Below are positions 14,385 to 40,679 of a DNA stretch of 61,019 bases, piece by piece (positions within the stretch are counted from its first letter, which is position 1; the number at the start of each line of letters is the position of its first letter). The notes under the pieces were generated by a model. It worked only from the letters and a program-made list of their open reading frames with translations, did not search any database and was not told the origin of the DNA. Position numbers and translations under genes: made by a program. This DNA is from a virus (lineage: Duplodnaviria; Caudoviricetes), in IMG/VR virus record IMGVR_UViG_3300020171_000029, positions 1 to 61,019 of that record. The stretch is one strand, 5' to 3'.

Positions 14385-14906
14385 TTAAATTAAAATTTCT
14401 TCAAAAGTTTTAATTCTTATTTTTTCTAAATCATTAATTGATATTAACCACCCAATTGTTATTTTTTCTTTTGTTGGAACTGTTGTTTCTCTCCATGGTG
14501 CTGGTCTTCCAGTTTTTGAACTATTTCTTATTTCTTTATTAACATATTCTCTGATATCTTTTAATTTATAAATATATATTTTTTTAGTTATTTGATTTCT
14601 TACAATAAAAATATCTACCTTTGATTCTGTCCCCCATCCCAATTTCCATTTTCCATCATAGTATAATCTTTCTCTTTCAAAAAATAAATTCTCTATCATT
14701 TTTTCATCACTTTTAGTTTCGATTTTAATTATTTTATCATCTTTTTTCATAAGAAAATCAACATCTAATATCCACCATATTTTTATTTTTCTAACATCTT
14801 CAAGTATCCAACCATCTTTTTCATAATTTTTTAATAATTTTTTAATAAATTCTTCATTTGTTTCTCCTTTTTTCATTAGCACCCCGTTATAATTTCCAAA
14901 AATCAT
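14385..14906 (-). CDS. PD-(D/E)xK nuclease-like protein
   Basis: DVDF...IETKSD...NLFFE...GW...SKVD; ATGA-coupled to methyltransferase. Confidence 0.65.
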   Translation of the reverse strand: MIFGNYNGVLMKKGETNEEFIKKLLKNYEKDGWILEDVRKIKIWWILDVDFLMKKDDKIIKIETKSDEKMIENLFFERERLYYDGKWKLGWGTESKVDIFIVRNQITKKIYIYKLKDIREYVNKEIRNSSKTGRPAPWRETTVPTKEKITIGWLISINDLEKIRIKTFEEILI

Positions 14907-16087
14907 ATTTCATTTCCCCAACTATCCCAATCTTTTCTTGTATTCCTTGCAAATAATTCTACATAATTACAATCGGGATACATTTTTTCAATTATTTTAT
15001 AAACACACTCTGGTTTTTTGCTATGTTTAAAATTTTCTCCTATGATTATACTTTCTGGTTTATATTCTGGTAATATAGAACCTTTTGTGCAAATTGTTAA
15101 TAATTCATGTTTCCCCATAATATAAAATCCAAGTGCTCCATATGTTGCTTTTTCTTTTGTCCAAACAAAATTAGTTTTATATTTAAATCCTAATCCATTA
15201 ATTAATTCAAATGATTCTTCAAGTAAAGGATTTGTCACCCACATAAATAATACACAATTTTTTTCTGCTAAATCTTTTATTCCTCTTCCATTTTCATCTT
15301 TAAATTCTAACATTTCTTTTATAGACATAGTATCATATTTTGTTTGTGCAGCTCCAGCAGTCCCTTCATTTTTATATTTCCAAGGTGGGTCTATATAAAT
15401 AACAGAATATTTTCGTTTTGGTAACGGATTAGATTTTTCTTCTTTTGCTGTTTCTTTTCTTTCTTTAATTTTAGATTCAACATTAATTTTATTATATGCT
15501 TGGTTTATAGAAATCTCACCGCTTCTTGCTTTTTCTTTAATTTCTTCATTTTCAGAATCAATAATTTTTTTAACTTTTGTTGCTTGTGGTTGGCTTAATT
15601 TTACTCTTTTAGCAACTTCTTTATGTGTATGATGCGGTTTAATAAATATTTTATTAATCCGCTTTTGTTCTGGAGAACCTCCAGAAAGTTGTTTATTTTT
15701 TTCTGCTTCTTTTTTATCATATTCTGCAAGTTTCCAAGAAAGTTCTAATTTTTGGAAATCTGTTAAATTTCTTCTTGCTAATTGATTTTTACCAATCCAA
15801 TTAATTACTTCATTCTCATTCTCAAACTTTTTAGAAATTGTTTTATAAGAAATCTTATGTTTTTGACAAATCTTAAATCTATTATGCCCATCAATTATAA
15901 AATCATTCCAAAGAACAAGAGCATCACGACAACCTTCATTTATAATAGAATCTTCTAATCCTTTAAATTCTTCATCAGTAAGTGGTGGTATTAAATTAGA
16001 AAAATTTTTATTTATTTGTATCATAATCATCTCCTTTGATAAATTATTATAAATTATTTTATTTATAAATAAATATATACTCAACAA
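14903..16087 (-). CDS. ParB-N fused MT-A70 family N6-adenine methyltransferase
   Basis: PPLTDEEF..L..SI..G, IIDGHNR, NQLARRNL; IYIDPPW, LFMWVT, HSKKP, ELFAR, WDSWGNE. Confidence 0.92.
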   Translation of the reverse strand: MLSIYLFINKIIYNNLSKEMIMIQINKNFSNLIPPLTDEEFKGLEDSIINEGCRDALVLWNDFIIDGHNRFKICQKHKISYKTISKKFENENEVINWIGKNQLARRNLTDFQKLELSWKLAEYDKKEAEKNKQLSGGSPEQKRINKIFIKPHHTHKEVAKRVKLSQPQATKVKKIIDSENEEIKEKARSGEISINQAYNKINVESKIKERKETAKEEKSNPLPKRKYSVIYIDPPWKYKNEGTAGAAQTKYDTMSIKEMLEFKDENGRGIKDLAEKNCVLFMWVTNPLLEESFELINGLGFKYKTNFVWTKEKATYGALGFYIMGKHELLTICTKGSILPEYKPESIIIGENFKHSKKPECVYKIIEKMYPDCNYVELFARNTRKDWDSWGNEI

Positions 16088-19146: not shown

Positions 19147-19774
19147 AGGATATAATCATAAAGAAAATTGTATTTGTAAATTATGTATTGGAAAAACTTC
19201 ATTTAAAAAAGGATTTGATAAAAGAAGAACCAACGGATTTCAAAAAGGTAATAAATTATTTGTAGGTAAAAATAATCATATGTTTGGTAAAAAAAGAAGT
19301 TGTTCCTGGACATCAGAAAGAAATAAAAAACAAGTAGGAGAATTAAATCCATTTTATGGAAAACATCATACAGAAGAATCGAAATTTAAACAGATTATTT
19401 CAAAAATTAGAAATAATAAATATAAGTTTAATCCAACTGAAAAATATTATTTAGATTTAAAAATGAAGTTTAAAAGCAATTGGGAAGCTAATATGGCAAG
19501 AATTTTTAATTTCTTAGAACTAACTTGGTATTACGAACCACAAATATTTAAATTAAAAAGTTCTTTTTATTGTCCTGATTTTTATATAAAAGATTGGAAT
19601 TGTTTTATTGAAGTTAAAGGATATATGTATCCTAAAAGCTTACAAAAAATAAATGAATTTAAAGAAAAATATCCAATAGAAATTATATCATCTAAAGAAT
19701 ATAAAAGTTGGTGTAATGATTTTCCATTACAAATTAAAGAATTGTCAAAAGGAGAAAAAAATGATAAAATTTGA
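19139..19774 (+). CDS. NUMOD3-containing PD-(D/E)xK endonuclease, probable homing endonuclease
   Basis: GKNNHMFGK, GELNPFYGKHHTEESK; FKSNWEA, YEP, YCPDF, FIEVKG. Confidence 0.8.
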   Translation: MNKGYNHKENCICKLCIGKTSFKKGFDKRRTNGFQKGNKLFVGKNNHMFGKKRSCSWTSERNKKQVGELNPFYGKHHTEESKFKQIISKIRNNKYKFNPTEKYYLDLKMKFKSNWEANMARIFNFLELTWYYEPQIFKLKSSFYCPDFYIKDWNCFIEVKGYMYPKSLQKINEFKEKYPIEIISSKEYKSWCNDFPLQIKELSKGEKNDKI

Positions 19775-20003
19775 TTTAAACGATATTATTCCAGAAGAAG
19801 AATTTAATTTAAGTGATAAAAGACAATTTCATGGAAATGGAATTACTAAGTATTATCCAGAAGAAGATGTTAAAGAGAAAATACAAAATGCTCAAAAGAG
19901 AATTAAAAGTATTGGTTACATAAGAGAAGAAGATTATATTAAAGAAATTAATAAAATATTCCTTGAGGAATTTGGAAAAGAGCTATTGGAGGAAAAGGGA
20001 TAA
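19761..20003 (+). CDS. Small paralog family B (EFNLS.K...DVKE...I...FG)
   Basis: Motifs shared with 20311, 20759, 20968; ends LEEKG in repeat R1. Confidence 0.7.
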   Translation: MIKFDLNDIIPEEEFNLSDKRQFHGNGITKYYPEEDVKEKIQNAQKRIKSIGYIREEDYIKEINKIFLEEFGKELLEEKG

Positions 20004-20314
20004 TGGAAGAAGAATTAAAAACAATAAAAGATATAGTAAGCTGGACTTGTGAATGTAATTGTGTAACTTTTGATAATGAGATATGTCGCTCTTGCGGGAA
20101 ATCACCAAAATATGGAGAGATTAATTATGATGATATAAAAGCAGAAGCAATCAAAATTCTAAAATCTGATACAAAAGATTTATGTGATTATCTTGGAGTT
20201 AAAGAATTGTCTAACGAACAAGTAATGGTAATTGATTTACTTATAAAAAAATCTTGCAATATTACAGAAAAAGATTTGGATACCCTAAAGGGCATAAAGG
20301 ATGTGCGAAGATGA
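20003..20314 (+). CDS. Small paralog family A with inserted Zn ribbon
   Basis: LKTIKDI...CEC..CRSC...KAEAIK...NITEKDL; ends KDVRR in repeat R2. Confidence 0.7.
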   Translation: MEEELKTIKDIVSWTCECNCVTFDNEICRSCGKSPKYGEINYDDIKAEAIKILKSDTKDLCDYLGVKELSNEQVMVIDLLIKKSCNITEKDLDTLKGIKDVRR

Positions 20315-20553
20315 ATAAAGAATTTAATTTAAAGGAAAAAAGAGAAAGATTTTTTAAAGATTGTATTCCAAACTTTGTTATTCATGGAAATGCACCTGTT
20401 TTAATAATAATTAAAGAACAAATTGAAAAACAAGATAAAGAATTTATTAAGAGATTGAAAAAGAAGTTATTTGGTGGTTCAAAAAAATTAAGTGATAATG
20501 AAATGATAGACATAATTGATAAACTCTCAGGAGATTTGGAGGAAAAGGGATAA
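20311..20553 (+). CDS. Small paralog family B
   Basis: MNKEFNLKEK...DKEFIKRLK...IDKLSGDLEEKG. Confidence 0.7.
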   Translation: MNKEFNLKEKRERFFKDCIPNFVIHGNAPVLIIIKEQIEKQDKEFIKRLKKKLFGGSKKLSDNEMIDIIDKLSGDLEEKG

Positions 20554-20759
20554 TGGAACTTAAAACTTTGAAAGATTTGAAACAATATAACTTTAATGTA
20601 GAAGATAATATAGTTTTTGCTGAACAGTTAGAACAATTAGCAATTAAGTGGGTTAAGGAAGATATAAATGAAGAAAAGGAATTAACAACTTATGAATTAA
20701 CAGAAAAGTGGATTAAAAGATTGAATATAAATAGAGAAGATTTGGAGGAAAAGGGATAA
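20553..20759 (+). CDS. Small paralog family A
   Basis: MELKTLKDL...AIKWVKEDI...LNINREDLEEKG. Confidence 0.7.
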   Translation: MELKTLKDLKQYNFNVEDNIVFAEQLEQLAIKWVKEDINEEKELTTYELTEKWIKRLNINREDLEEKG

Positions 20760-20971
20760 TGGAAGAATTTAATTTAAGTAAGAAAATAGCAAAAACTAAT
20801 TTTACAACTGTTACAAATTTTATAAGAGTAAAAGATGTCAAAGAATTTATCCGATTAGAAGGTTACTTACTTCAAAGTTATATTACAAGAGAAATTACTT
20901 GGTATGAAATGTGTGATAAAAGAAGAAAACTTATTGGAGAAGAATTAACAAAGGATGTGCGAAGGAAATGA
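20759..20971 (+). CDS. Small paralog family B
   Basis: MEEFNLSKK...DVKEFIR...LIGEELTKDVRRK. Confidence 0.7.
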   Translation: MEEFNLSKKIAKTNFTTVTNFIRVKDVKEFIRLEGYLLQSYITREITWYEMCDKRRKLIGEELTKDVRRK

Positions 20972-21177
20972 GGAAAGAAAAACCATTAAGACCATTAAGT
21001 GAGAAGAAATTAGAGACTTGTAAATTAGCAAGAGGTTTTCCAAATACTTATCCAGAAAAAGATGTAGCAGAAGCAGTAAGGAGATTGAAAGAAGGAATAC
21101 ACGTTTTTAATGAGTCGGTATTAGGAGATAAAGGGAGAAATAATTTAATTAATGAAATATTTGGAGATTTAGAATGA
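20968..21177 (+). CDS. Small paralog family B
   Basis: PLSEK...YPEKDVAEAVRRLKE...INEIFGDLE. Confidence 0.7.
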   Translation: MRKEKPLRPLSEKKLETCKLARGFPNTYPEKDVAEAVRRLKEGIHVFNESVLGDKGRNNLINEIFGDLE

Positions 21178-21323
21178 ATAAAGAGAATTTCCGAAAAGCA
21201 ATAATAGAATATTCCAGAAAAAGCCAAATAGGAATACATCAGTTAAAACACTATTTAACAGATGGAAGATTAATTGGTATTTTGGAAATTTATGATAAAT
21301 TAACAAAGGATGTGCGAAGATGA
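21174..21323 (+). CDS. Small protein ending in repeat R2 (not in ORF track)
   Basis: MNKENFRKAII...YDKLTKDVRR, 49 aa, ATGA overlaps at both ends. Confidence 0.55.
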   Translation: MNKENFRKAIIEYSRKSQIGIHQLKHYLTDGRLIGILEIYDKLTKDVRR

Positions 21324-23560: not shown

Positions 23561-24244
23561 ATGAAAATCGAAAAAAAATTTCTGGAAATCCCATTTGATT
23601 GTATAAAAGATTTAATTATAGAACCTTGTCTTAAATTCAATTCTGAAGGAATGTTCATAACAGCATTTGCAGAATCTAATGCAGCATTGTGTTTGTTTAA
23701 ACTGCCAAAGGAAAAATTCGTTCAATATGAATTTTTAGAAGAACAAAAATTCAAAATTAGTTCAGAACTTCTTGCAAAGATTATGAAGCGAATCAAAACG
23801 CAATTTGTAAATCTGGATTTTAAAGATGAAAAGTTTATAATATCTGATGAGAATAAAAAGGAATATTCAATCGCAGTTATGCATGATGATGAGGTTGAAA
23901 GGAATGTCCCACAGCTTGAGTTAAAATCCAATTTTAAAATGATAAGCTCTGAATTACAAAATTTGTTTTTAGATGCAGGTATAATAGGCGATGATATAAA
24001 ACTTGAAACAAAAGGAAAAATAATTATTTCTTCTGGAGAATTAAACAAGTTTAATCAGGAAGTTGAATGTGAAGTTGTTGGAGAGGCACAATCCATTTAT
24101 AGTTTAGAATATCTTAATAAGTTTATGAATGCTTCAAAATATTTTAAAGATGTTTTGTTTGAGTTTGATTCTAATAGTCCTTGCAGATTAACTTTTAAAG
24201 ATGAATTGGAAATTCAATTTGTTTTGGCGCCAAGAGCTGAGTAA
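23561..24244 (+). CDS. pcn: PCNA sliding clamp
   Basis: DLI.E..LKF.SEG, F..YE, two-domain repeat, YSLEYLNK, P..L.F, FVLAPRAE C-terminus. Confidence 0.9.
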   Translation: MKIEKKFLEIPFDCIKDLIIEPCLKFNSEGMFITAFAESNAALCLFKLPKEKFVQYEFLEEQKFKISSELLAKIMKRIKTQFVNLDFKDEKFIISDENKKEYSIAVMHDDEVERNVPQLELKSNFKMISSELQNLFLDAGIIGDDIKLETKGKIIISSGELNKFNQEVECEVVGEAQSIYSLEYLNKFMNASKYFKDVLFEFDSNSPCRLTFKDELEIQFVLAPRAE

Positions 24245-24257
24245 GGATTTTTATAAA

Positions 24258-24923
24258 ATGGAGAGTGAATTATTACCTACAAATGAAGAACCAATTAAGA
24301 TTATTAATGCTGATTGTCTTGAGGTTTTGAAGAAACTTCCTGATAATTGTATTGATTTGGTTTTAACAGACCCACCTTATGGAATAAATCAAGATAAAGG
24401 GATTCAATTATATACAAAAGCATCTTCCAAACATACAGTAAAAAAATATAAAGATAATTGGGATTCAAAAACACCTTCTAAAGAGATTTTTGATGAAATA
24501 TTAAGAGTGGGGAAAAAAGTTATTATTTTTGGAGGTAATTATTTTATAGATAAATTGCCATTTAAAACATCTTGGATTATATGGGATAAAATAGGTAATA
24601 TAAAATTTAATGATACTTTCACAGATGTTGAAATGGCATGGACTAATTTTGATAGAAATATATCTAAAAAATATATTTGTATTCAACATGGTTTTGTTTC
24701 TGAAGAAAGAAAAAGAGAACATCCAACCCAAAAACCAGTTAAATTATTTAGAAATATTATAAAAGATTATTCAAAAGAAGGAGAGCTTATCATGGATTGC
24801 TTTCTCGGCTCAGGAACAACAACAATTGCATGTAAACAATTAAACAGAAAATGTCTTGGAATAGAAATATCAAAAAAATATTGTGATATTGCAAAAAAGA
24901 GATTACAACAGGGAGTCTTATAA
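24258..24923 (+). CDS. N4-C/N6-A DNA methyltransferase (beta class)
   Basis: DLVLTDPPYG, HPTQKP, DCFLGSGTT, GIEI; ends QQGVL. Confidence 0.93.
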   Translation: MESELLPTNEEPIKIINADCLEVLKKLPDNCIDLVLTDPPYGINQDKGIQLYTKASSKHTVKKYKDNWDSKTPSKEIFDEILRVGKKVIIFGGNYFIDKLPFKTSWIIWDKIGNIKFNDTFTDVEMAWTNFDRNISKKYICIQHGFVSEERKREHPTQKPVKLFRNIIKDYSKEGELIMDCFLGSGTTTIACKQLNRKCLGIEISKKYCDIAKKRLQQGVL

Positions 24924-25071
24924 TGGTATGCCCGAGCAGAAAAAATTTAATGATATGCAAAATAATTAAAGATAAAAAAACGAAGAAAAAAGAAGTTAAA
25001 CCAAAAGAAAAGATAATAGAAGAAGAACATCAAAAAAGATTAAAAAAATTAAAAGAAATGGGATTTAAAAT

Positions 25072-25578
25072 ATGAAAAAATTAGCAATACAAATGGGAGG
25101 AAGAAGTGATGAATTTCATACTCCAAAATATGCAATAAAACCATTACTACCTTTTTTAAAAAAGAATTGGATTATATGGGAATGTGCTTGGGGAAAAGGA
25201 AGTTTAGCAGAACATTTAGAAAAAGAAGGATTTAAAGTAATTGGAGATAGTGATGTAGATTTTATTAAAGTTTCTTATATGGATCATTCAGATTGTTTAG
25301 TTACAAATCCACCTTACTCAAAAAAAGATGAATTTTTGAAAAAAGCATTTGAATTAGGAAAGCCATTTGCATTTCTTATGCCATTAACAGCATTGGAAGG
25401 AATAAAAAGAGGAGAATTATTTAGAAGATATGGAATACAACTTATAATTCCAAATAGAAGAATAAATTTTATAACTCCTTCTGGAAAAGGAAGTGGAGCT
25501 TGGTTTCAAACTGCTTGGTTTTGTTGGGGATTAAATTTGCCAAAGGATTTAAATTTTGTAGAATTAGAAAAAGAATGA
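25072..25578 (+). CDS. Small N6-adenine DNA methyltransferase
   Basis: DEFHTP, IWECAWGKG, VTNPPYS. Confidence 0.85.
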   Translation: MKKLAIQMGGRSDEFHTPKYAIKPLLPFLKKNWIIWECAWGKGSLAEHLEKEGFKVIGDSDVDFIKVSYMDHSDCLVTNPPYSKKDEFLKKAFELGKPFAFLMPLTALEGIKRGELFRRYGIQLIIPNRRINFITPSGKGSGAWFQTAWFCWGLNLPKDLNFVELEKE

Positions 25579-25919
25579 AAAAATTAGCAATATTCGACAT
25601 AGAAACAGATTCACTAATCATAGAAGAAGCACAAATAAAATTCATAGGGATTCTTGATTTACAAACTAATGAATATAATATAATCCAATATAAAGAACCA
25701 AAAGAAATTAAAACAATATTGAACAATTATGATTTCATAATCACATTCAACGGTGAGCAATTTGATATACCAATATTAAAAAGGCACAGAATAATTATCC
25801 CAGATTATAAACATATTGACTTATATAAAGTTTTTAAGAAGAAGGCGCCATTGCTTTGTTCTGGCGGGTTTAAGAGTTATAGTTTGAATAATATCACAAA
25901 GGAGATTGAGAAGTTATGA
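25575..25919 (+). CDS. polB: PolB 3'-5' exonuclease N-terminal fragment (ExoI+ExoII)
   Basis: Start at ATGA overlap 25575; FDIET, TFNGEQFDIP, HIDL, SYSL; stops before ExoIII. Confidence 0.85.
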   Translation: MKKLAIFDIETDSLIIEEAQIKFIGILDLQTNEYNIIQYKEPKEIKTILNNYDFIITFNGEQFDIPILKRHRIIIPDYKHIDLYKVFKKKAPLLCSGGFKSYSLNNITKEIEKL

Positions 25920-26170
25920 TAAAAGAATTTAAAATAAAAAAAGAAAATCAGTTTAAAGATTTTAATGGTTTAACAACCATTTCTATTCAAGCATATAAAG
26001 AAAATAATCTATTTGGTATTGAATTTATAAAATTTTTTGAATTAAGAGATTATAATGGACATACATCACACCATTTTATAAAAACTATTAAATCAGAAAA
26101 TATCAACATAGATTTAGAATTTAAAAATATTTCTCAAGAATTAATAAATTTAAAAAGGGATATTAAATGA
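25916..26170 (+). CDS. Hypothetical protein inserted between polB halves
   Basis: 84 aa, ATGA overlaps both sides. Confidence 0.6.
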   Translation: MIKEFKIKKENQFKDFNGLTTISIQAYKENNLFGIEFIKFFELRDYNGHTSHHFIKTIKSENINIDLEFKNISQELINLKRDIK

Positions 26171-26901
26171 TGGAAATAAATAAAGTTATTTATGGTGATT
26201 ATTTGGAAGAAATGAAAAAGTTACCAAATGAAAGTATAAATTTAATTCTTACAGACCCTCCTTATGGGATAAATTTTCAATCTGGACACAGAAAACAAGT
26301 TAGTAATGTTAAATTTAATAAATTTAAATTAGATGATAATTTATTATGGTATGAATTATTTTATGATGAATGTATGAGAATTTTAAAAAATGATTCTTTT
26401 ATGTATATTTGTTTTAGATTTGATAGTTTATTTGAAATAGCAAAATTATTTGGAGATAAAGTAAAGCCATTTAAAGTTTTAATTTGGGATAAAATGGATT
26501 ATGGAATGGGAGATTTGAATTTTTTTTCTGTATCTTATGAAATTATTTTATGTTATAAAAAAAGAAATCCAAAGTTAATAAATTATGATAAACGTCCAAA
26601 TGGTATTTTTAGAATACCAAAAGTTCAAAATTTTAGATGTAAAGAAAATAAACCAACAGGAGATAAAAATCAAGATTTTATGTTACATCCAACACAAAAA
26701 CCATTAGAACTTATGAAAAGAATAATAAGTGTGTCATCAAAAGAAAATGATTTGATTTTAGACCCGTTTGCAGGAGGAGGTTCTACATTAATAGCATCAA
26801 AAATGTTAAAACGAAATTATATTGGAATAGAAATAGATGAAAAATATTGTGATGTAATTCAAAAACGATTAAATAAAGAAAATAAACAAATGATATTATG
26901 A
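26167..26901 (+). CDS. N4-C/N6-A DNA methyltransferase (beta class) between polB halves
   Basis: LILTDPPYG, HPTQKP, LDPFAGGGST, GIEI; ends KQMIL. Confidence 0.93.
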   Translation: MMEINKVIYGDYLEEMKKLPNESINLILTDPPYGINFQSGHRKQVSNVKFNKFKLDDNLLWYELFYDECMRILKNDSFMYICFRFDSLFEIAKLFGDKVKPFKVLIWDKMDYGMGDLNFFSVSYEIILCYKKRNPKLINYDKRPNGIFRIPKVQNFRCKENKPTGDKNQDFMLHPTQKPLELMKRIISVSSKENDLILDPFAGGGSTLIASKMLKRNYIGIEIDEKYCDVIQKRLNKENKQMIL

Positions 26902-28313
26902 AAAAAGAAAAAATTAATTATAAAATATTTCAAAAAGATGAATGGACACAAGAAGAACTACAAGAAATAAAAAAATATCTTAAACAAGATTTAAACCTCA
27001 CAAAAGACCTATGGCAGTTCCTAATAAAAAAATTCGACTCACTTAAAGAATTCATACCACAAAAAGATGCAGAAAACTTTAAACACATAACAATGTCAAG
27101 CGGAGCATATGGATACAAGGTTATCTGCCATCTGTTGGGATTAAAAGAAGAATATAATAATATTAATGGAAATCCCCATTATGAAGGAGCCTATGTGATG
27201 CAGCCAAAAGAGGAAACGTTAAAAGGGAACATTCTATGCTTTGATTTTGCATCGCTTTATCCGATGATGTATGTCCATGCAAATTTGTTTTCTCATGATT
27301 GTAAGTGCTGCAAGCAAGAAGAAAAATGGCATGGTAATGAAAGTTTTAAAGTAGAAGGTTATTATTGTTCAAAACAACAAGGAAAGATAGAAGAATTGGT
27401 CAAAGAATTTTATATGAAAAGAAAATTATACAAGTTAGAAAAAGATAACAGACAATTTGCTATAAAAATAGTTCTTAATTCTCTTTATGGGATTTCCGCA
27501 AAACCATCATTTAAAAATCTTTATAATAAAAATATTGCAAGTGATTGCACGGCATTGGCAAGGCAATGCATTCATTATGCCATAAAGAAATTTGAAGATA
27601 ATATGTATGATATTGTTTATTCCGACACAGATTCTGTTTTTATAAATCTAAAAAATTATCAGAAAAAAGAACTTTGCATGCAATTGGCAGAAGAAATATC
27701 AATAGAAATAAGCAGACAATTTCCTTTTCCATTTGATGAGTTTAGTTTAAGTATTGATGATGAGATAAAGTATCTGCAATTTTTTATTGGTAGAGATGAG
27801 CAGTTGAATAAAAAGCATTATCTTTATATAAACAAAGATGATAAATTAAGGATAAAAGGATTGGATATTATAAAAAAAGATTGCAGTGAATTAAGTCAAA
27901 AAATATTTAATGATTTTTTAAAAGAAGATATTATAAAAAATTTAAATTGTAAATTTGATAGGGATTTTATGGATAATAAAATTAATGAAATTATAAAACA
28001 AGATAAAACGATTATTGCAAAGCGATTTAATATAAAATCATTAAAAAATTATAAGTCAAAAACTTCTATTTATTATCTTATTGGAGAGAAATATGGAAGT
28101 GGTGAGATTTTATTGATAAAAAATTATAAATTTGGTGCTGGAAAAAGGATTAAATATTGTTCTATAGATGAAGCAAAAAATTTAGATGTTGGTGATTTGA
28201 ATTTAGAAGATATTTATAAAGAATTGGGAGTTTTTATAAAAGATTATAAAGTTGAAAAGGTTAAGAAAGAAAAGAAGATTAAAAAAATTAAATCAAAGCA
28301 AATGGAATTATGA
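26898..28313 (+). CDS. polB: Family B DNA polymerase, ExoIII + polymerase domains
   Basis: ExoIII YLKQD; YEGA; motif A FDFASLYP; motif B KIVLNSLYG; motif C YSDTDS; KKHY, IKG; ends KQMEL. Confidence 0.93.
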   Translation: MKKEKINYKIFQKDEWTQEELQEIKKYLKQDLNLTKDLWQFLIKKFDSLKEFIPQKDAENFKHITMSSGAYGYKVICHLLGLKEEYNNINGNPHYEGAYVMQPKEETLKGNILCFDFASLYPMMYVHANLFSHDCKCCKQEEKWHGNESFKVEGYYCSKQQGKIEELVKEFYMKRKLYKLEKDNRQFAIKIVLNSLYGISAKPSFKNLYNKNIASDCTALARQCIHYAIKKFEDNMYDIVYSDTDSVFINLKNYQKKELCMQLAEEISIEISRQFPFPFDEFSLSIDDEIKYLQFFIGRDEQLNKKHYLYINKDDKLRIKGLDIIKKDCSELSQKIFNDFLKEDIIKNLNCKFDRDFMDNKINEIIKQDKTIIAKRFNIKSLKNYKSKTSIYYLIGEKYGSGEILLIKNYKFGAGKRIKYCSIDEAKNLDVGDLNLEDIYKELGVFIKDYKVEKVKKEKKIKKIKSKQMEL

Positions 28314-28897
28314 ACTGTATAGAAGAAATTTGGCAATTACATAGAAATAGTAAATCTTATACTGGTGCATATCCAGAAGGATATATAAGAAATGTTGATA
28401 AACTTATAACATTAACAGGAAAAAAAGTTTTACATTTATTTGGCGGTATTACAAAAGAAGATAAAAATAATCATACAAATGATACAAAACAAGAAAAAGC
28501 AACATTTCATTTTGATGCAAGAAAAAAATTTCCGATTAATGATGAAGAATATGATGTTGTTATGTGCGACCCTCCTTATGATTTAGAAGAAAATTTTATA
28601 CATTTATCAGATAAGAAAAAGAGATTGCATTATGGAAAAAATCTTTATGATACTCCATTTGTTCCACCATATAGTTTTATAGATGAAGCAGTTAGAGTTT
28701 GTAAACATAAAGGATTTATATGTGTTTTGCATTTTTTAGTTTATAAAATTCCAAAAGGAACTAAAAGATATGCATTAATTCCAATTATTTCTGGTCCTAA
28801 TTTAAGAATAAGATGTTTAAGTATATTTCAAAAAATAAATAATAATGAAGAAATACAAATTTTAAACAAAAAATTAATACAACAAAAATTAATATGA
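28310..28897 (+). CDS. Putative amino-methyltransferase (DPPY)
   Basis: YTGAYP, VLHLFGG, DVVMCDPPY; ends QQKLI. Confidence 0.75.
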   Translation: MNCIEEIWQLHRNSKSYTGAYPEGYIRNVDKLITLTGKKVLHLFGGITKEDKNNHTNDTKQEKATFHFDARKKFPINDEEYDVVMCDPPYDLEENFIHLSDKKKRLHYGKNLYDTPFVPPYSFIDEAVRVCKHKGFICVLHFLVYKIPKGTKRYALIPIISGPNLRIRCLSIFQKINNNEEIQILNKKLIQQKLI

Positions 28898-29481
28898 AAA
28901 TACTAAATTTATATGCAGGAATTGGAGGAAATAGAAAACTTTGGGGAGATGAACATGAAGTTACTGCAATTGAAATTAATCCAGAGATTGCTGGGATATA
29001 TAAATACAATTTTCCAAATGATAAAGTAATAGTTACAGATGCTCACCAATATTTATTGCAGCATTATCAAGAATTTGATTTTATCTGGAGCAGTCCACCT
29101 TGTCCAACACATAGTAGATTATGTTTTAGCCAACCAATTAAGAATTATCCAGACATGACTTTTTATCAACAAGTTATTTTATTAAAAAGCTGGTTTAAAG
29201 GAAAATGGGTTGTTGAAAATGTAATACCTTATTATGAAGCATTAATTAAACCAACTTTTGAATTAGGAAGGCATCCTTTTTGGAGTAACTTTAATGTTAA
29301 TAAAATAGAATTTAAGAATATTGATGTAAGTCGTTCAACAGCAGAAGAACTTTCAGAATATTTAGATATGCCTATACCAAGAATAAAAGCAAGATTATTA
29401 TTAAGAAATTGTATAGAACCTAAAATGGGTTTACATATTTTTAATTGTGCTTTTAAAAAAAGACAAGGAGTTTTAATATGA
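28894..29481 (+). CDS. C5-cytosine DNA methyltransferase (short)
   Basis: LNLYAGIGG, WSSPPC, VENV, RH; ends RQGVLI. Confidence 0.88.
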   Translation: MKILNLYAGIGGNRKLWGDEHEVTAIEINPEIAGIYKYNFPNDKVIVTDAHQYLLQHYQEFDFIWSSPPCPTHSRLCFSQPIKNYPDMTFYQQVILLKSWFKGKWVVENVIPYYEALIKPTFELGRHPFWSNFNVNKIEFKNIDVSRSTAEELSEYLDMPIPRIKARLLLRNCIEPKMGLHIFNCAFKKRQGVLI

Positions 29482-30134
29482 AACGAATACTATCAAAATC
29501 ACAAGCAAATTTATTTTTGCAATGTCCTTACAAATGGAAAAAAATATATTTAGATAAGATTTCATCTATACCATCACCTGCACAAGCGAGAGGAATTTCA
29601 ATACACAAAAAGATTGAAAAATTCTATAAAAATCTACAACCTGATATTGATTTAAAACATTTTATAAAATTTGAATTAAGAAGAATAAAAGATATGATTA
29701 AAGAAGGAAAATTTGATAAAAAATATTTTTTTCCAATATTTCAGGAATTAAAATTATATAATGAAGAACTTGGACTTAAAGGAATTGTTGATGCTGTGTT
29801 TATAAATTCAAAAGATGATGAACTTGTTGTAATAGATTGGAAGACAGGAAAATATTATCCAGATAAGTTTGACGATTATAGATTTGAACTTGCTGTTTAT
29901 GCCGAACTTTTAAAACATTCTGGAAAGGTAGATGAAAGTCCTGCTTATTGGGGAATATATTTTTCTGACCAAGATAAACTATTCTTTGAGAAGATTGATG
30001 ATGCTCATATTAAAAAAATGTATGATACAATGCATCAAGTAAGAAAAGGAATTGAAAGTGGTGAATATAAACCAAAAAGAAATGAGTGGTGTTACTGGTG
30101 CCAATTTAAACGAGAGTGTTGTTTTATAAAATAA
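29478..30134 (+). CDS. Cas4/RecB-like PD-(D/E)xK exonuclease with Fe-S cluster
   Basis: LS.S....F.QCP, G..IH, GIVD, IDWKTG, Y, CYWC....EC. Confidence 0.88.
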   Translation: MKRILSKSQANLFLQCPYKWKKIYLDKISSIPSPAQARGISIHKKIEKFYKNLQPDIDLKHFIKFELRRIKDMIKEGKFDKKYFFPIFQELKLYNEELGLKGIVDAVFINSKDDELVVIDWKTGKYYPDKFDDYRFELAVYAELLKHSGKVDESPAYWGIYFSDQDKLFFEKIDDAHIKKMYDTMHQVRKGIESGEYKPKRNEWCYWCQFKRECCFIK

Positions 30135-32976: not shown

Positions 32977-34215
32977 TTGGAAATTATTATGTGGGTTTAT
33001 AGGTTTTATGGTTATTTCAAATTTTATAAAATGGATGTGGAAAAAATGAGAATTCTTTGGCTTTCAGATTCACCAATGACTGTTACCGGTTATGCAACCA
33101 TAAGTTGGAATATCTGTAATAAATTAGCCGAAGCAGGACATGAAGTTTATTTTATTGGACATAATTATATCGGACAAACAATACCAAAAGGACTTGTTCT
33201 TCAAGATGGAACAAAATTTAATTTTACAATTCTTGGAGGAAGTCCACAAGCATATGCACAAAATTTATTGATGCCTTATATCAAAAAATATAATATTGAT
33301 GTTTTTGGAATTCTTCTTGACACCTTTATGACTTATCCTTGGTTACTTAATTTTGATTTTAGTCCAGCAAAATCAATCTTTTATTATCCTTCTGATGGTG
33401 GAGGAGGAATGCCATTGGGATGTGAAAATATTTTGAAAAAAGTTAATTGTCCAGTTGCTATGGCAAGATTTGGAATGAGACAAGTAAAAGAACTTTATGG
33501 AATGGATACAAAATATATTCCTCATGCTATTGATACAAAAATATATTATCCATTATCAAAAGAAGAAAAAGAACAATGTAAAATAAAGTTTGGATTGCAA
33601 GGAAAGTATGTTGTTGGTGTTGTTGCCAGAAATCAAGGTAGAAAAATGCTTGATAGAACAATCAAATCTTTTTCTTTATTTTGTAAAGATAAACCAGATG
33701 CAGTATTGTTTATGCATACCGACCCATATGATGTTGCTGCACCTTTTGATATGATGAATTTGATTAATAGATATAAATTAAATAATAGGGTTATTTTTTC
33801 TGGGATGTCATTTTTTAACGGATTTGATTATAAAAAAATGAATGAAGTTTATAATGCAATGGATTGTTTTTTACTTACAACTTCTGGAGAAGGATTTGGA
33901 GTACCAATTTTAGAAGCACATGCTTGTGGAATACCAACAATTGCTACCGATTATACAACTACTCAAGAATTACTTATTGAAGATGGACAATGTGGATTGC
34001 CAGTAAAACTTGCTTCAGAACTTACCGGTTCATGGAATGTAGAGCGAGCAATAATGGATGATAACCATTGTGTTGAGTGTTTAAACAATTTATATTTTAA
34101 TAAAGAACTAAGAGAGCAATTTGGAAATACTGGAATTGAAAAAGTAAATAAATTATATAGCTGGGAAAATGTTGGAAAGCAGTGGTGTAGTTTAATAGAG
34201 GAATTACTAAAATGA
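32977..34215 (+). CDS. GT4 (GT-B) glycosyltransferase (start probably 33031/33046)
   Basis: ILWLSDSP..TGY, IPHAID, VARNQGRK, EGFGVPILEA. Confidence 0.92.
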   Translation: MEIIMWVYRFYGYFKFYKMDVEKMRILWLSDSPMTVTGYATISWNICNKLAEAGHEVYFIGHNYIGQTIPKGLVLQDGTKFNFTILGGSPQAYAQNLLMPYIKKYNIDVFGILLDTFMTYPWLLNFDFSPAKSIFYYPSDGGGGMPLGCENILKKVNCPVAMARFGMRQVKELYGMDTKYIPHAIDTKIYYPLSKEEKEQCKIKFGLQGKYVVGVVARNQGRKMLDRTIKSFSLFCKDKPDAVLFMHTDPYDVAAPFDMMNLINRYKLNNRVIFSGMSFFNGFDYKKMNEVYNAMDCFLLTTSGEGFGVPILEAHACGIPTIATDYTTTQELLIEDGQCGLPVKLASELTGSWNVERAIMDDNHCVECLNNLYFNKELREQFGNTGIEKVNKLYSWENVGKQWCSLIEELLK

Positions 34216-34529
34216 AAATAATGATAAATTGGTTGATTTGTGATACACACAAAGATATTTGTGATTGTGAAATCAAAAAATATAAATATAAAAATTGGGA
34301 AGGAAAAGTATATATGATTTCAGGAAGTAATTTAATTTATAATTTATTAGGGAAAGATTTTTTTAAAATGCCTCCATATAATAATTGGATAAACAATAAT
34401 GGTTTTTTAATTATTAAAGCATCTAAATTTGAAAAGAAATTTCCTAATGCTAAAAAAATGAAATTTGAAATTTATGATAAATCAGAATACAATTTAGATA
34501 AATTAAAAAAGGAAAATATATTACAATGA
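34212..34529 (+). CDS. Hypothetical protein
   Basis: 105 aa, ATGA-coupled. Confidence 0.55.
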   Translation: MKIMINWLICDTHKDICDCEIKKYKYKNWEGKVYMISGSNLIYNLLGKDFFKMPPYNNWINNNGFLIIKASKFEKKFPNAKKMKFEIYDKSEYNLDKLKKENILQ

Positions 34530-35392
34530 ATTACATAATAACAGGAAATTCAGGATTAATCGGAACATATCTAAAAAAAAGTTTAGATAAAAAACATAAT
34601 TGTATTCTTCAGATAGACCAACGAGAAGGATTTAATGTATTAAGTTTAGATGGAGTTAAGTTAAATCCAAAAACACAAAAGACAGATATTTTATATCATC
34701 TTGCAGCTCATTGTAAAATTCAAGAAGGGATTGATTATCCACAATTACCTCACATAAATAATGCAGATGGAATTCATAAAGTTATGGAATTTTGTAGAAA
34801 AAATAATATACCAAAGATTGTAGCATTTTCAAGTAGCAGAGTGTTAAGTGTAAATGAAAATCCTTATACTGCAAGTAAAAAATATTTAGAAAATCTTGTA
34901 AAGGGATATACAGAATGTTACGGAATTGAACATATCATAATAAGACCAAGCACTGTTTATGGTCCTATTCATGATGTTACAAGTAGATTATTAACAACTT
35001 GGTGCATAAAAGCATTAAAAGAAGAAAAATTACCATTATATGGTGATGCGAATAAGACATTAGATTTCACACATGTTAGTGATTTTGTTGATGGAATAAA
35101 CTTGCTTGTAGATAATTGGGGTAAAACAAAAAATAAAGCTTATAATGTTTCAGGAAATGAAGAAGTAAAATTGGTTGATGTTGCTAATATGATTTTTAAA
35201 GAAGTTGGTTATAATTGGACTGTTCCACAGATAATAAACTTTCTACCGCCAGAAACAGCTCAACCGCAAAGAGTCAATGTTGATACTTCTGAAATTAGAA
35301 AGTTAGGATATAAACCAAAAGTTAAATTAGAAGATGGCATTAAAGAAATGATTAATTTTTATAAGAAGGAGGGAATAAAATGGTTAAGTTAA
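34526..35392 (+). CDS. NAD-dependent sugar epimerase/dehydratase (extended SDR)
   Basis: ITGNSGLIG, HLAA, SSS, YTASK, RPSTVYGP, DFTHVSD. Confidence 0.92.
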   Translation: MNYIITGNSGLIGTYLKKSLDKKHNCILQIDQREGFNVLSLDGVKLNPKTQKTDILYHLAAHCKIQEGIDYPQLPHINNADGIHKVMEFCRKNNIPKIVAFSSSRVLSVNENPYTASKKYLENLVKGYTECYGIEHIIIRPSTVYGPIHDVTSRLLTTWCIKALKEEKLPLYGDANKTLDFTHVSDFVDGINLLVDNWGKTKNKAYNVSGNEEVKLVDVANMIFKEVGYNWTVPQIINFLPPETAQPQRVNVDTSEIRKLGYKPKVKLEDGIKEMINFYKKEGIKWLS

Positions 35393-36624
35393 TAGTTGTA
35401 ATAATGGGACCAGGAAAGAAACATTTTGCTGAGATGTGTTTGGATAGTGTTAAAGATGCTGACAAGATTTTGTATTGGACAAGTGCTAATTTTTTACCAT
35501 TTCCAGTTACAAAAGATGTAGAAGAACATTATAATTTTTGGGACGAAACAGACCCAGCAACAAATGGAAAATGTAGACAAAGATATTTGGAACATCTTAA
35601 AGAAAACTATCCAGATGATTGGTGTCTTGTTCTTGATGAAGACGAACTAATTGAAGACTTAGAAAAAATTAGAGAGTTTATAAACAATCCACAAACACAA
35701 AAACTTGGAGGTGCTTGGCAAGTAAAGATGAGACACTTTATAGGAGATTTAGGACATGAAGATGCAACTGTTCAAGAGCATTATGTTCCAAATAGATTAT
35801 TTAAGATAAGTGATGCTGAGTATTACCCAGAACATTCTCATCCTATTTTAGTTACAAAAGGTGGACAATCACAAAGATATCGAGCAACAACAATTTTCCA
35901 CTTAGGACATTTGCCAGTAAGCTATATGGATTATATATTAAAAAGATATAAACAACATGCTAAAGATAGCATAATTCATAATCAAGAATTTTTAAAGCAA
36001 TGGAAAATAAGTCACTTGTTAGGAGTGTATCCCACAAGACAAATTAATCCTCTTGAATTACCAAAACAAATTTGCGATAGATATGAAATTGATAAAGATG
36101 AATTTTATTTTGCAGATAGAAAAAATTTAGAAGCAAAACACTTTATGATGATAAGGAATTGGTTTGATAAGTTTAATCCAAAATCAATTTTAGATATAGG
36201 ATGTGGATTTGGATTATTTGGATATGCAGCAAAAACAATTAATCCAGAAATAGAATATACAGGAGTAGATATAAGCAAGTATGTTGGAAAATATTGGAAT
36301 GATAATATTGGAGAACTTATAGTTAATGATATAACAAATGTTTTTATAAATAAGCATTATGATTTAATTTTATTTATAGACATATTAGAACATTTATTAT
36401 ATGAAGATTTAGAAATTGTTTTAAAAAATGAATGTAATAGAGATGGCGCTTTTATATTTTCAATACCATTTGAAGGTGACCCAAATCTTGAAGCAGATGC
36501 TACACATATTATCAAAGAAGATAAAGATTGGTGGGTAGAAAAATTAAGTAAATATTTTAATATAAGAGATGCTCCAAAAGAATGGTTATTCTCACAACAA
36601 TTATTAATAGGAGAGAAAAAATGA
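35380..36624 (+). CDS. GT-A glycosyltransferase fused to class I SAM methyltransferase
   Basis: WCLVLDEDE, RLF, HLGH; C-terminal ILDIGCGFG, GVDIS, DILEH. Confidence 0.85.
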   Translation: MVKLIVVIMGPGKKHFAEMCLDSVKDADKILYWTSANFLPFPVTKDVEEHYNFWDETDPATNGKCRQRYLEHLKENYPDDWCLVLDEDELIEDLEKIREFINNPQTQKLGGAWQVKMRHFIGDLGHEDATVQEHYVPNRLFKISDAEYYPEHSHPILVTKGGQSQRYRATTIFHLGHLPVSYMDYILKRYKQHAKDSIIHNQEFLKQWKISHLLGVYPTRQINPLELPKQICDRYEIDKDEFYFADRKNLEAKHFMMIRNWFDKFNPKSILDIGCGFGLFGYAAKTINPEIEYTGVDISKYVGKYWNDNIGELIVNDITNVFINKHYDLILFIDILEHLLYEDLEIVLKNECNRDGAFIFSIPFEGDPNLEADATHIIKEDKDWWVEKLSKYFNIRDAPKEWLFSQQLLIGEKK

Positions 36625-36763
36625 CAGAAAAAGAAAGAGAAATCGAAAGTATAATAAATAAAACAGAAAAAGTAATTGGTGTTAATGGAGCAACTTTTGA
36701 TTACAAAAATTTAATTGTTCAAGCTAAAACAATGGACGAATGTAAAAAAGTGTTTGACGAGGA

Positions 36764-37189: not shown

Positions 37190-37357
37190 AATACGAAAAT
37201 ATGATACACGGAGAAACTATTAGAACAATAATGAATAGAAATAAATGCGACCCAATTAAATTCAATATGATGTTCTGTGATGAATACATGATGCAGAATT
37301 GTAAGATGACTTGTGAGTATGCAATCAAAATGAGTAAATTAGAAGAAGGAGTGAAAT

Positions 37358-38041: not shown

Positions 38042-38200
38042 ATTTATTAATTTAGGGAATGGTTATTTAGATATAACAAAAATTATTGGTATTTGGAAAC
38101 AAGAATCAATGGATTATCCATATATTGTTTTATATGGTAATGGAAGAATTGGAATAACTCAAAGAGATTTTATTAAATTAAAAAAAGAATTAAAATTAAA

Positions 38201-38749: not shown

Positions 38750-38884
38750 AAATAGATTTTCATATATTTGAATTAGAACCAAGAGTATTTTATATCAAAT
38801 ACTTTTTATTTTTCAAAACTAAAAAAGAAAAAGAAATGAAGAATATATTAAAACAAGAAATAGATATTTGTATGAATAAACAAT

Positions 38885-40562: not shown

Positions 40563-40679
40563 AGAAGTTAAAAGATGTTGTATGTGTAATGATGTTGCAA
40601 TATATATAAATAATGATACAAAAGAATATCTTTGTCAACGATGTGCAGAAATAAATGAAGTAGCAAGGAGAAGTAAATA

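What the first reader, a model, noticed from the sequence alone, without database searches (positions are those of the whole stretch)
23561..29481. PolB and four DNA methyltransferases share a C-terminal Q-x-x-L tail next to a viral PCNA
Seen C-termini: RLQQGVL (24923), NKQMIL (26901), PolB SKQMEL (28313), LIQQKLI (28897), KRQGVLI (29481). These enzymes span different classes (beta amino-MTases, another DPPY type, C5-MTase, polymerase). Established: PIP boxes are Q-x-x-[LIM]-x-x-aromatic-aromatic, often C-terminal in archaea, and DNMT1 uses one. Inference: a truncated PIP motif loads the methylases onto the viral clamp, giving replication-coupled multi-motif methylation against host restriction.
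Basis: partly seen in the sequence, partly recalled or inferred. Interest (0 to 1): 0.78.

Follow-up and report, generated by a model that had tools for sequence, protein, structure and literature searches.

The report
Clamp-binding tails on viral DNA methylases
In a tailed, probably archaeal virus, the DNA polymerase and four DNA methylases next to a viral sliding clamp all end in the same short Gln-x-x-Leu tail, which looks like a cut-down clamp-docking motif and also occurs widely on methylases of other viruses and bacteria, suggesting that DNA is methylated as it is copied.

Summary
All five C-termini are as quoted. In the window, 6 of 112 ORFs end Q-x-x-[LIM]-(x), against 1.5 expected, and five of the six lie in the nine ORFs of 24201-29481. 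Start/stop overlap and Shine-Dalgarno sequences do not explain them.

The PolB tail is a truncated PIP box by homology: homologues grade from KQTKLGDF through KQTKLF and SQKRL to KQMEL. Related viruses keep the tail on all five of their MTase ORFs, with different residues at the x positions. The tail is coil, with low confidence in the C5 methylase model. A PCNA-tail fold gave only weak support: 0.52 against a best control of 0.27.

Both methylase families carry such ends widely: 41 of 120 N6/N4 homologues and 66 of 120 C5 homologues. This includes bacteria, isolated bacteriophages and complete small phages without PCNA. There the end is usually QxxLF, the bacterial beta-clamp motif.

Best reading: a general sliding-clamp docking tail on viral DNA-modifying enzymes, here in a minimal PCNA form. 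I found no paper describing it. Binding is untested.

The parts
23561..24244 (+). Viral PCNA (sliding clamp), 227 aa
   Evidence: Pfam PCNA_N 1.8e-5. PDB phmmer best hit is A. fulgidus PCNA 1rwz, 3e-14, residues 14-227. 809 homologues at E<=1e-3. The C-terminal L-A-P-R is (nearly) invariant in a 70-row alignment.
24201..24923 (+). MTase1, N6/N4 (beta-class) DNA methylase. Tail QGVL is encoded at 24909-24920.
   Evidence: Pfam N6_N4_Mtase 2.1e-29. Tail read from the DNA. AF2 model: last helix 225-236, final four residues coil.
24923..25075 (+). Conserved 50-aa lysine-rich ORF (MVCPSRKN...), no tail
   Evidence: ORF. A 52-aa homologue sits between an MTase and PolB in L091. Function unknown.
25072..25578 (+). 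MTase2, small NPPY methylase WITHOUT the tail (...ELEKE)
   Evidence: Weak Pfam EcoRI_methylase hit, 7.9e-4, below the curated cut-off. Ten homologues in IMG/VR also lack the strict tail.
25575..25919 (+). PolB exonuclease piece (Exo I/II), ends EIEKL, no tail
   Evidence: Pfam RNase_H_2 5.5e-13. Residues 1-111 align to residues 1-110 of the unsplit homologue P0004 at 75% identity.
25916..26170 (+). 84-aa ORF of no family. Together with MTase3 it forms the insert that splits PolB.
   Evidence: No Pfam family. Position shown.
26167..26901 (+). MTase3, N6/N4 DNA methylase inserted within PolB. Tail QMIL is encoded at 26887-26898.
   Evidence: Pfam N6_N4_Mtase 1.5e-39. 41 of 120 homologues end Q..[LIM].?$. 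Its last 34 residues were folded with the PCNA trimer: weak support.
26898..28313 (+). PolB polymerase piece (Exo III to thumb). Tail QMEL is encoded at 28299-28310.
   Evidence: Pfam DNA_pol_B 1.4e-28. Residues 3-471 align to P0004 115-583 at 74% identity. The C-terminus is homologous to the PIP box of cellular DPANN-type PolBs.
28310..28897 (+). MTase4, Eco57I-like amino-methylase (CDPPYD). Tail QQKLI is encoded at 28880-28894.
   Evidence: Pfam Eco57I 4.4e-6, above the cut-off. No relatives found in IMG/VR.
28894..29481 (+). MTase5, mini C5 cytosine methylase. Tail QGVLI is encoded at 29464-29478.
   Evidence: Pfam DNA_methylase 5.3e-8. 66 of 120 homologues end Q..[LIM].?$. AF2: residues 187-195 are coil, and the last pLDDT block (residues 191-195) averages 55.
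29478..30134 (+). PD-(D/E)XK (Cas4-like) nuclease, no tail. It marks the end of the syntenic module.
   Evidence: Pfam PDDEXK_1 1.5e-23. Same position after PolB in L091.
14903..16087 (-). MT-A70 family methylase, no tail. It is the seventh MTase-like gene of the window.
   Evidence: Pfam MT-A70 4.6e-22.

Best explanation
The window is a tailed dsDNA virus, probably of a DPANN-type archaeon. Its replication module encodes its own PCNA, a family-B polymerase and several DNA methylases. The C-terminal Q-x-x-L(-I) ends of the polymerase and of four methylases are minimal sliding-clamp docking motifs. They keep the first half of a PIP box (Gln, then the aliphatic residue three positions on) and have lost the aromatic pair.

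Each enzyme would hang from the clamp that encircles freshly made DNA by this flexible end. Several methylases of different specificity would then act on nascent viral DNA at or just behind the fork, before host restriction enzymes can cut it.

What is shown:
- the motif, its clustering, and its conservation across relatives and across unrelated enzyme folds;
- its homology to a PIP box in PolB;
- its exposed position.

What is inferred:
- physical binding to PCNA, viral or host;
- coupling of methylation to replication;
- the anti-restriction purpose.

The same device, usually as QxxLF, appears on methylases of bacteriophages and bacteria, where the partner would be the beta clamp.
For: 1. 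Non-random clustering. 6 of 112 ORFs match against 1.47 expected, and five of the six lie in nine adjacent ORFs.

2. PolB series. 27 of 29 cellular DPANN-type PolB homologues end in a canonical PIP (19, e.g. KQTKLGDF, KQTGLSAWG) or a short form (8, e.g. KQTKLF, SQKRL). In the viral family, 27 of 91 end Q..[LIM].?$ (KQKKLF, KQRSLF, RQMIL, KQMEL) and 10 of 91 have Q..h..aromatic in the last 18 residues.

3. Relatives. In L091 (PolB 65% identical, with a PCNA) the ends are C5 MTase KQYQKTL, two N6/N4 MTases NQKKLI and KQKKLI, and PolB KQRSLF. L090 has an MTase ending EQTKL and L092 one ending RLQQQTL. All 5 MTase ORFs detected in the relatives' loci carry the tail.

4. SLiM signature. Q and L are fixed while the x positions and the linker length vary. 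Examples are KQMIL, KQSTL, SQMNLF and QQSRLF after 0-8 linker residues. All 12 closest C5 homologues in the list (P0241-P0252), the window's own protein among them, keep Q-x-x-L after the last helix.

5. The same place in some homologues holds a canonical PIP: C5 6 of 120 (e.g. KQNSLTSF, QGTLASF) and N6/N4 3 of 120 (e.g. QNNLKEWF, QENLRNYF).

6. Different folds share the tail: N6/N4, Eco57I-like and C5 methylases and PolB. In more distant PolB-family loci, TGT/DpdA-like enzymes end KQVGVFDF and KQQTIFG.

7. AF2 models put the tail after the last helix as coil. The last pLDDT block (residues 191-195) of MTase5 averages 55.

8. Complex fold of PCNA x3 with MTase3 residues 210-243.
- ipSAE 0.52 (runs 0.52, 0.39, 0.53); best control 0.27.
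- The mark was reached by 58 of 80 solved complexes and 2 of 110 mismatched pairs. At 0.60 or under it was reached by only 7 of those 80 and by both passing mismatches, so the support is weak.
- The runs agree in at least 77% of contacts, and the partner's pLDDT is at least 53.
- My own alignments and three PCNA copies make the calibration only rough.
- PCNA-PIP complexes are solved, so the pass may reflect likeness to them.

9. Established knowledge: PIP is Qxx[I/L]xxFF, the beta-clamp motif is a C-terminal QL(S/D)LF, and Dnmt1 uses a PCNA-binding motif (PMC9690074, passages; PMC4929162, passages).
Against: - The aromatic pair that fills most of the PCNA hydrophobic pocket is missing, so affinity could be very low.
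- No binding was measured. The only structural test gave weak support and no interface.
- In MTase1 and many N6/N4 homologues (...RLRQEVLL) the tail follows the last helix with no linker. It could therefore be a structural cap of the domain.
- The tail is common where there is no PCNA (bacteria, bacteriophages, complete small phages). The link to the neighbouring viral PCNA is therefore not specific.
- Two of six sampled phage N6/N4 MTases and two of four sampled phage C5 MTases lack a terminal motif.
- MTase2 and the MT-A70 methylase of the same virus lack it.
- No clamp loader was found among the 30 window proteins scanned.
- Homologue counts are not phylogenetically independent, so the p-values are overstated.
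Confidence: 0.58

Rival explanations
1. The tail is an intrinsic element of these methylase families with a role unrelated to clamps. Possible roles are capping the last helix, dimer contacts, DNA contact, or a C-terminal stability or degradation signal. Its likeness to the PolB tail would be convergence on a simple amphipathic end.
For: The tail is family-wide in N6/N4 (41 of 120) and C5 (66 of 120) homologues whatever the genome context. In many N6/N4 members it abuts the last helix with no linker, and the last pLDDT block of MTase1 averages 84.
Against: The same motif sits on four unrelated folds, and on TGT-like enzymes in related loci. Linker length varies from 0 to about 8 residues. The tail of MTase5 is low-confidence coil. 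Some homologues carry a full canonical PIP at the same place. In PolB it is homologous to a PIP.
Confidence: 0.2
2. The tails dock onto a shared partner other than the sliding clamp. Candidates are the D5-like primase-helicase, an SSB, or the conserved 50-aa lysine-rich protein encoded between MTase1 and MTase2.
For: The 50-aa ORF is conserved next to PolB in the window and in L091. No binding partner has been shown. The complex fold was only weak.
Against: The motif grades into canonical PIP boxes in cellular PolBs and into the beta-clamp pentapeptide form in bacteriophages that have none of these viral proteins.
Confidence: 0.1
3. The tails are a by-product of DNA-level constraints. The genes overlap by ATGA or TAATG, and the last codons hold the Shine-Dalgarno sequence of the next gene, which forces similar C-terminal residues.
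For: All five genes end in a 1- or 4-base start/stop overlap. Two tails contain GGAG (CAGGGAGTC, CAAGGAGTT), which gives the G-V of QGVL.
Against: Three of the five tails have no GGAG. Most other ATGA junctions in the window end in Lys (AAATGA) and lack Q..L. The tail is kept in homologues with other downstream contexts and other codons, and in cellular and phage genomes.
Confidence: 0.03

Closest known systems
PIP box of archaeal and eukaryotic PCNA clients (Q-x-x-[LIM]-x-x-[FY]-[FY]), e.g. the C-terminal PIPs of archaeal PolB, Fen1, RFC-L and NucS
   Same: A Gln and an aliphatic residue three positions on, at the extreme C-terminus after a flexible linker, on a replicative PolB beside a PCNA. 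The PolB tail is positionally homologous to canonical PIPs of cellular DPANN-type PolBs. Motif definition from PMC4929162 (passages).
   Different: The aromatic pair is absent. The protein ends at motif position 4 or 5. The clients include prokaryotic-type DNA methylases, which the reviews I read do not list as archaeal PCNA clients.
DNMT1-PCNA coupling in mammals
   Same: A DNA methylase carries a PCNA-binding motif and acts preferentially on PCNA-marked, newly replicated DNA (PMC9690074, passages).
   Different: DNMT1 is a large maintenance C5 enzyme with an internal canonical motif. Here several small, unrelated orphan methylases (N6/N4, Eco57I-like, mini C5) of a virus each carry a minimal terminal motif.
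Bacterial beta-clamp-binding motif QL(S/D)LF
   Same: A C-terminal pentapeptide with Q at position 1 and L at position 4 (PMC9690074, passages). Many homologous MTases from bacteria and bacteriophages end exactly QxxLF, for example Flavobacterium, Cellulophaga and Tenacibaculum phages.
   Different: The window's tails lack the final Phe, and the virus encodes a PCNA, not a beta clamp. MTases are not among the beta-clamp clients named in that review, and no paper found in my searches names them.
Phage T4 gp45 clamp clients (C-terminal tails of gp43 polymerase, gp33 and gp55)
   Same: A virus-encoded clamp serves as a hub for several viral proteins that dock by short C-terminal tails. This is recalled knowledge; titles and abstracts on T4 late transcription were seen in the listing.
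   Different: The clamp family and the motif differ. The T4 clients are the polymerase and transcription factors, not methylases.

Membership tests
PIP box (PCNA-interacting peptide) | Gln at motif position 1 | tested here: met
   All five tails have Q four or five residues from the end.
PIP box (PCNA-interacting peptide) | Aliphatic L/I/M at position 4 | tested here: met
   L in all five tails. It is conserved in relatives.
PIP box (PCNA-interacting peptide) | Two aromatic residues at positions 7-8 | tested here: not met
   The proteins end at position 4 (three) or 5 (two). Homologues at the same place sometimes have the aromatic residue: 19 of 29 cellular PolBs, 6 of 120 C5 and 3 of 120 N6/N4.
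PIP box (PCNA-interacting peptide) | Lies in an exposed, flexible terminus or linker | tested here: met
   AF2: MTase5 residues 187-195 are coil and the last pLDDT block (191-195) averages 55. In MTase1 the last four residues are coil after helix 225-236. PolB has a Lys-rich linker.
PIP box (PCNA-interacting peptide) | Binds the hydrophobic pocket under the interdomain connecting loop of PCNA | tested here: inconclusive
   Complex fold: 0.52 against a best control of 0.27, rated weak support, with no interface reported. No measurement is possible with these tools.
Bacterial beta-clamp-binding motif QL(S/D)LF | C-terminal pentapeptide Q-x-x-L-F | tested here: not met
   None of the five window tails ends in F; two end L-I. 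Many homologues do end QxxLF: 43 of 120 C5 and 15 of 120 N6/N4 end Q..h-aromatic, and so do 4 of 6 sampled phages.
Bacterial beta-clamp-binding motif QL(S/D)LF | A beta clamp (DnaN) is available as partner | tested here: not met
   The virus encodes a PCNA. Its PolB's nearest cellular relatives are named as Nanoarchaeota, Pacearchaeota and Micrarchaeota. The host was not identified directly.
PCNA (for the clamp gene) | Two-domain clamp fold over the full length, with the conserved C-terminal LAPR strand | tested here: met
   phmmer against PDB gives archaeal PCNAs over residues 14-227, E 3e-14. L222, A223, P224 and R225 are (nearly) invariant in 70 rows. In the complex fold the PCNA chains (x3) had pLDDT 90-91.

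The most novel reading that the evidence does not exclude
C-terminal clamp-docking tails are a general, so far undescribed feature of DNA-modifying enzymes of prokaryotic viruses. These include N6/N4 and C5 orphan methylases and DpdA/TGT-like base-exchange enzymes. The tail takes the form QxxLxxF or QxxL for PCNA in archaeal viruses and QxxLF for the beta clamp in bacteriophages. Anti-restriction modification would then be physically coupled to the replication fork across both domains. This virus would show the extreme case: a viral clamp serving as hub for at least four methylases and a split polymerase.
Probability: 0.4. Interest if true: 0.85.

Novelty: new variant of a known kind. Interest (0 to 1): 0.72.

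Why it matters
Phage and archaeal-virus methylases are usually thought of as free enzymes that must win a race against host restriction enzymes. A clamp-docking tail would give that race a mechanism: modification happens on the clamp, as the DNA is made. This is the DNMT1-PCNA logic, but in viruses of prokaryotes and for several specificities at once.

It would add a new and abundant class of clients to both PCNA and the beta clamp. It would explain why small orphan methylases with minimal DNA-binding parts are effective. It would also give a simple sequence mark (a terminal QxxL[F]) for predicting replication-coupled DNA modification in metagenomes.

The graded series from canonical PIP to QxxL in DPANN-type polymerases also bears on how little of a PIP box is enough. 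The idea is directly testable with peptides and recombinant clamps.

Tried and rejected
Translational-coupling artefact. I read the DNA of all five gene ends and of all 112 ORF ends. Only two tails hold GGAG, and other ATGA junctions mostly end in Lys. Rejected as the main cause.

Chance. Rejected.

Search with the single PolB protein in IMG/VR. It gave only 22-24% relatives and was of no use. The profile search gave one family member, L010. The metagenome scan gave the useful loci.

MTase4 relatives in IMG/VR. None were found, so conservation of its tail could not be tested.

MTase2 relatives. Ten homologues, none with the strict tail. Several have ...QLNFV[DE]L near the end, contiguous with the conserved domain. 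I did not count this as a motif.

The listing of cluster members on ten C5 homologues. It gave no organism names, so host domain could not be assigned to the metagenomic homologues. I used named phage and GTDB records instead.

PCNA or beta clamp in five IMG/VR records with tailed C5 MTases. Neither was found. For the PCNA profile the tool warns that an empty answer without a positive control shows little. The beta-clamp family rang in 10 of 14 control genomes.

Literature. Seven searches (listings with abstract starts only) found no paper linking prokaryotic or viral DNA methylases to a PIP or clamp-binding motif. I read passages of PMC4929162 and PMC9690074. The first mentions only a pull-down of an adenine methylase with NucS. 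The second names only Dnmt1. Subscription papers and supplements were not visible, so prior description cannot be excluded.

I did not test the PolB, MTase1, MTase4 or MTase5 tails in a complex fold (one job only). I did not build a tree-aware test of tail form against clamp type.

Full report
WHAT IS THERE. The window is a 61-kb IMG/VR virus record, linear, estimated 64% complete. It is a tailed virus with portal, large terminase, HK97-type capsid and tail tube. The + strand region 16-48 kb holds replication and DNA-modification genes.

The finding covers the following genes:
- PCNA (23561-24244).
- MTase1, N6/N4 (24201-24923).
- A 50-aa ORF.
- MTase2, a small NPPY enzyme (25072-25578).
- The PolB exonuclease piece (25575-25919).
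- An 84-aa ORF.
- MTase3, N6/N4 (26167-26901).
- The PolB polymerase piece (26898-28313).
- MTase4, Eco57I-like (28310-28897).
- MTase5, a mini C5 enzyme (28894-29481).
- A PD-(D/E)XK nuclease follows.

The PCNA is full length. Its best PDB match is A. fulgidus PCNA, E 3e-14 over residues 14-227. The nearest cellular relatives of the PolB are named as Nanoarchaeota, Pacearchaeota, Micrarchaeota or 'archaeon'. A DPANN-type archaeal host is therefore likely, but this is inferred.

The pattern Q..[LIM].?$ fits 6 of 112 ORFs, against 1.47 expected. Five of the six lie in the nine ORFs of 24201-29481 (hypergeometric 5.5e-6).

I first suspected the DNA, because every one of these genes ends in an ATGA or TAATG overlap with the next start. 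That would favour NNA last codons and put the next gene's Shine-Dalgarno sequence in the tail. However, only two tails contain GGAG. Most other ATGA junctions in the window end AAATGA (Lys), and none of them has Q..L. MTase2, the exonuclease piece and an MT-A70 methylase at 14903-16087 have no tail.

THE POLYMERASE TAIL IS A SHORTENED PIP BOX. The PolB search returned 120 proteins, and their ends form a graded series.
- Of 29 cellular DPANN-type PolBs (about 770-820 aa), 19 have a canonical Q..h..aromatic motif in the last 18 residues (KQTKLGDF, KQTGLSAWG, NQKSLDRFF).
- Eight end in a short form (KQTKLF, KQQKLF, SQKRL, SQKKL).
- Only 2 of 29 have neither.
- Of 91 members of the compact viral family (about 570-610 aa), 27 end Q..[LIM].?$ (KQKKLF, KQRSLF, AQASLF, RQMIL, KQMEL). 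Ten have Q..h..aromatic in the last 18 residues. A further 36 have an aliphatic-x-x-aromatic end without the strict tail.

So KQMEL is what is left of a PIP box when the last three or four residues are lost. Cellular polymerases show the same truncation.

THE METHYLASE TAILS ARE CONSERVED IN RELATED VIRUSES. A profile scan of metagenome contigs gave 21 loci of the PolB family. The closest ones with context are as follows.
- L091 (PolB 65% identical) has a PCNA, a C5 MTase ending KQYQKTL, two N6/N4 MTases ending NQKKLI and KQKKLI, the same small MVCPSRKN ORF, an unsplit PolB ending KQRSLF, and the PD-(D/E)XK nuclease.
- L090 has an N6/N4 MTase ending EQTKL directly before a split PolB.
- L092 has one ending RLQQQTL before PolB, which ends RQMKL.

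An HMM scan of all ORFs in these loci found five MTase ORFs outside the window, and all five carry the tail. Q and L stay fixed while the residues between them and the codons change. This is the signature of a short linear motif under selection.

In more distant loci of the family, two TGT/DpdA-like proteins next to PolB end KQVGVFDF and KQQTIFG.

THE TAIL IS MUCH WIDER THAN THIS VIRUS.
- Among the 120 best homologues of MTase3, 41 end Q..[LIM].?$ (RLRQEVLL, RLRQGVLL, RLEQDVLF, SQMNLF, QQSRLF). Linkers run from 0 to about 8 residues, and 3 carry a canonical PIP (QNNLKEWF, QENLRNYF).
- Among the 120 best homologues of MTase5, 66 end this way, 43 of them Q..L-aromatic (EQNKLF, EQDKLF, NQTELF). 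Six have a canonical PIP at the same place.
- In 80 GTDB genome loci with N6/N4 homologues, 8 have the strict end: 7 of 75 bacterial, one of which is a truncated ORF, and 1 of 5 archaeal. Several more have near-terminal QTLWLAL- or QTLSLEL-type motifs.
- Of 79 IMG/VR contigs with a C5 homologue, 21 have the end. None has a PCNA or this PolB within 10 kb.
- Five such records, two of them 97-100% complete, have neither PCNA nor DNA_pol3_beta. One is a 27-kb tailed phage with portal and terminase.
- I chose six isolated bacteriophages from the top 40 hits, not at random. Four N6/N4 MTases end QxxLF: Flavobacterium phages lillamy9-7 and 11b, Cellulophaga phage Nekkels_1 and Tenacibaculum phage JQ. 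The Microcystis phage has QGNLF seven residues from the end, and the Tetrasphaera phage has QAVLF about twenty residues from the end.
- Of four sampled phage C5 MTases, the Vibrio and Gordonia phages have no motif. A Flavobacterium phage has NQVSIFDAIG, and a Nitrosopumilaceae spindle-shaped virus has KQVILSTLGFESP.

However, QxxLF at a C-terminus is the bacterial beta-clamp-binding pentapeptide (PMC9690074, passages). The simplest single account of all the data is a clamp-docking tail that takes the form suited to the clamp at hand.

STRUCTURE. AF2 models place the tail after the last helix as coil. These were MTase1 (mean pLDDT 82) and MTase5 (mean pLDDT 89.6). In MTase5, residues 187-195 are coil and the last pLDDT block (residues 191-195) averages 55. 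In MTase1 the helix ends at residue 236 and QGVL is coil, with the last block at pLDDT 84.

The one complex job folded three PCNA copies (70-row alignment) with the last 34 residues of MTase3 (64-row alignment). Its result:
- ipSAE was 0.52 (runs 0.52, 0.39, 0.53) against a best control of 0.27.
- The tool rates this weak support. The mark was reached by 58 of 80 solved complexes and 2 of 110 mismatches, but at 0.60 or under by only 7 of the 80 and by both passing mismatches.
- The runs agree in at least 77% of contacts, and the partner's pLDDT is at least 53.
- No interface was given.
- The job differs from the calibration. PCNA-PIP complexes are solved, so memory of them may contribute.

MECHANISM AND CONFIDENCE. 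I take the tails to be minimal clamp-docking motifs that tether PolB and four methylases to PCNA on nascent viral DNA. My confidence is about 0.85 for PolB and about 0.55 for the methylases, 0.58 overall. Binding, replication coupling and the anti-restriction purpose are inferred.

The main rival (0.2) is a family-intrinsic role of the tail in the methylases. Against it stand the spread over unrelated folds, the variable linkers and the canonical PIPs at the same site in some homologues. A different shared partner (0.1) and a DNA-level artefact (0.03) are less likely.

KNOWN OR NEW. PIP boxes, the beta-clamp motif, DNMT1-PCNA coupling and viral clamps as hubs (T4 gp45, recalled) are all known. 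Seven literature searches and the two reviews I read in passages turned up no description of clamp-binding motifs on prokaryotic or viral DNA methylases. Supplements and subscription journals were not visible.

I file this as a new variant of a known kind. It fails the PIP membership test on the aromatic pair and the beta-motif test on the terminal Phe, but it plausibly works like both.

Noticed in passing
window 25575-28313; also L090 and L092: The PolB gene is cleanly split between Exo II and Exo III by a 1-kb insert (84-aa ORF plus MTase3). The exonuclease piece aligns to residues 1-110 and the polymerase piece to residues 115-583 of an unsplit 583-aa homologue. Split forms of 466-471 aa recur in relatives (P0002, P0006/L090). 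L092, P0009 and P0015 start at a second site (query residue 143...KWHGNE), again with an MTase directly upstream. MTase genes seem to invade PolB repeatedly.
   Followed up: partly
L105:2017-3252 and L099:977-2215: TGT (queuine tRNA-ribosyltransferase)-like proteins of 411-412 aa, possibly DpdA-type DNA base-exchange enzymes. They lie next to PolB in distant relatives and end in PIP-like KQVGVFDF and KQQTIFG.
   Followed up: partly
window 12824-14152 (-): The D5-like primase-helicase (DUF5906, D5_N) ends ...SPLPIFGL. A second tail type, P-x-P-L-[FL] at the end (APIPLFY, TPTPLF, QPQPLL, NPPLFAGL), recurs in N6/N4 MTase homologues. It may be another docking motif.
   Followed up: no
window 14903-16087 (-) and 35380-36624 (+): Further methyltransferases: an MT-A70 family enzyme next to the helicase and a class-I SAM methyltransferase domain in a 414-aa protein. 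Neither has the tail.
   Followed up: no
window 32977-48310 (+): A long run of sugar- and cofactor-type genes unusual for a 61-kb virus. It includes a group-1 glycosyltransferase and two B12-binding radical SAM enzymes (40680-41918 and 44640-45920).
   Followed up: no
window 19716-21323 (+): A family of small tandem ORFs with repeated ends...LEEKG twice, and ...KDVRR or ...KDVRRK three times. Their DNA is near-identical at the gene junctions.
   Followed up: no
window 24923-25075; L091:9486-9644: A conserved lysine-rich mini-protein of 50-52 aa (MVCPSRKN...). It lies between a methylase and the next replication gene in both viruses. It was not scanned against Pfam.
   Followed up: no
window 23561-24244 versus L091:5537-6289: The two viral PCNAs are only 25% identical although the PolBs are 65% identical. 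The clamp evolves much faster than the polymerase, or it was exchanged.
   Followed up: no
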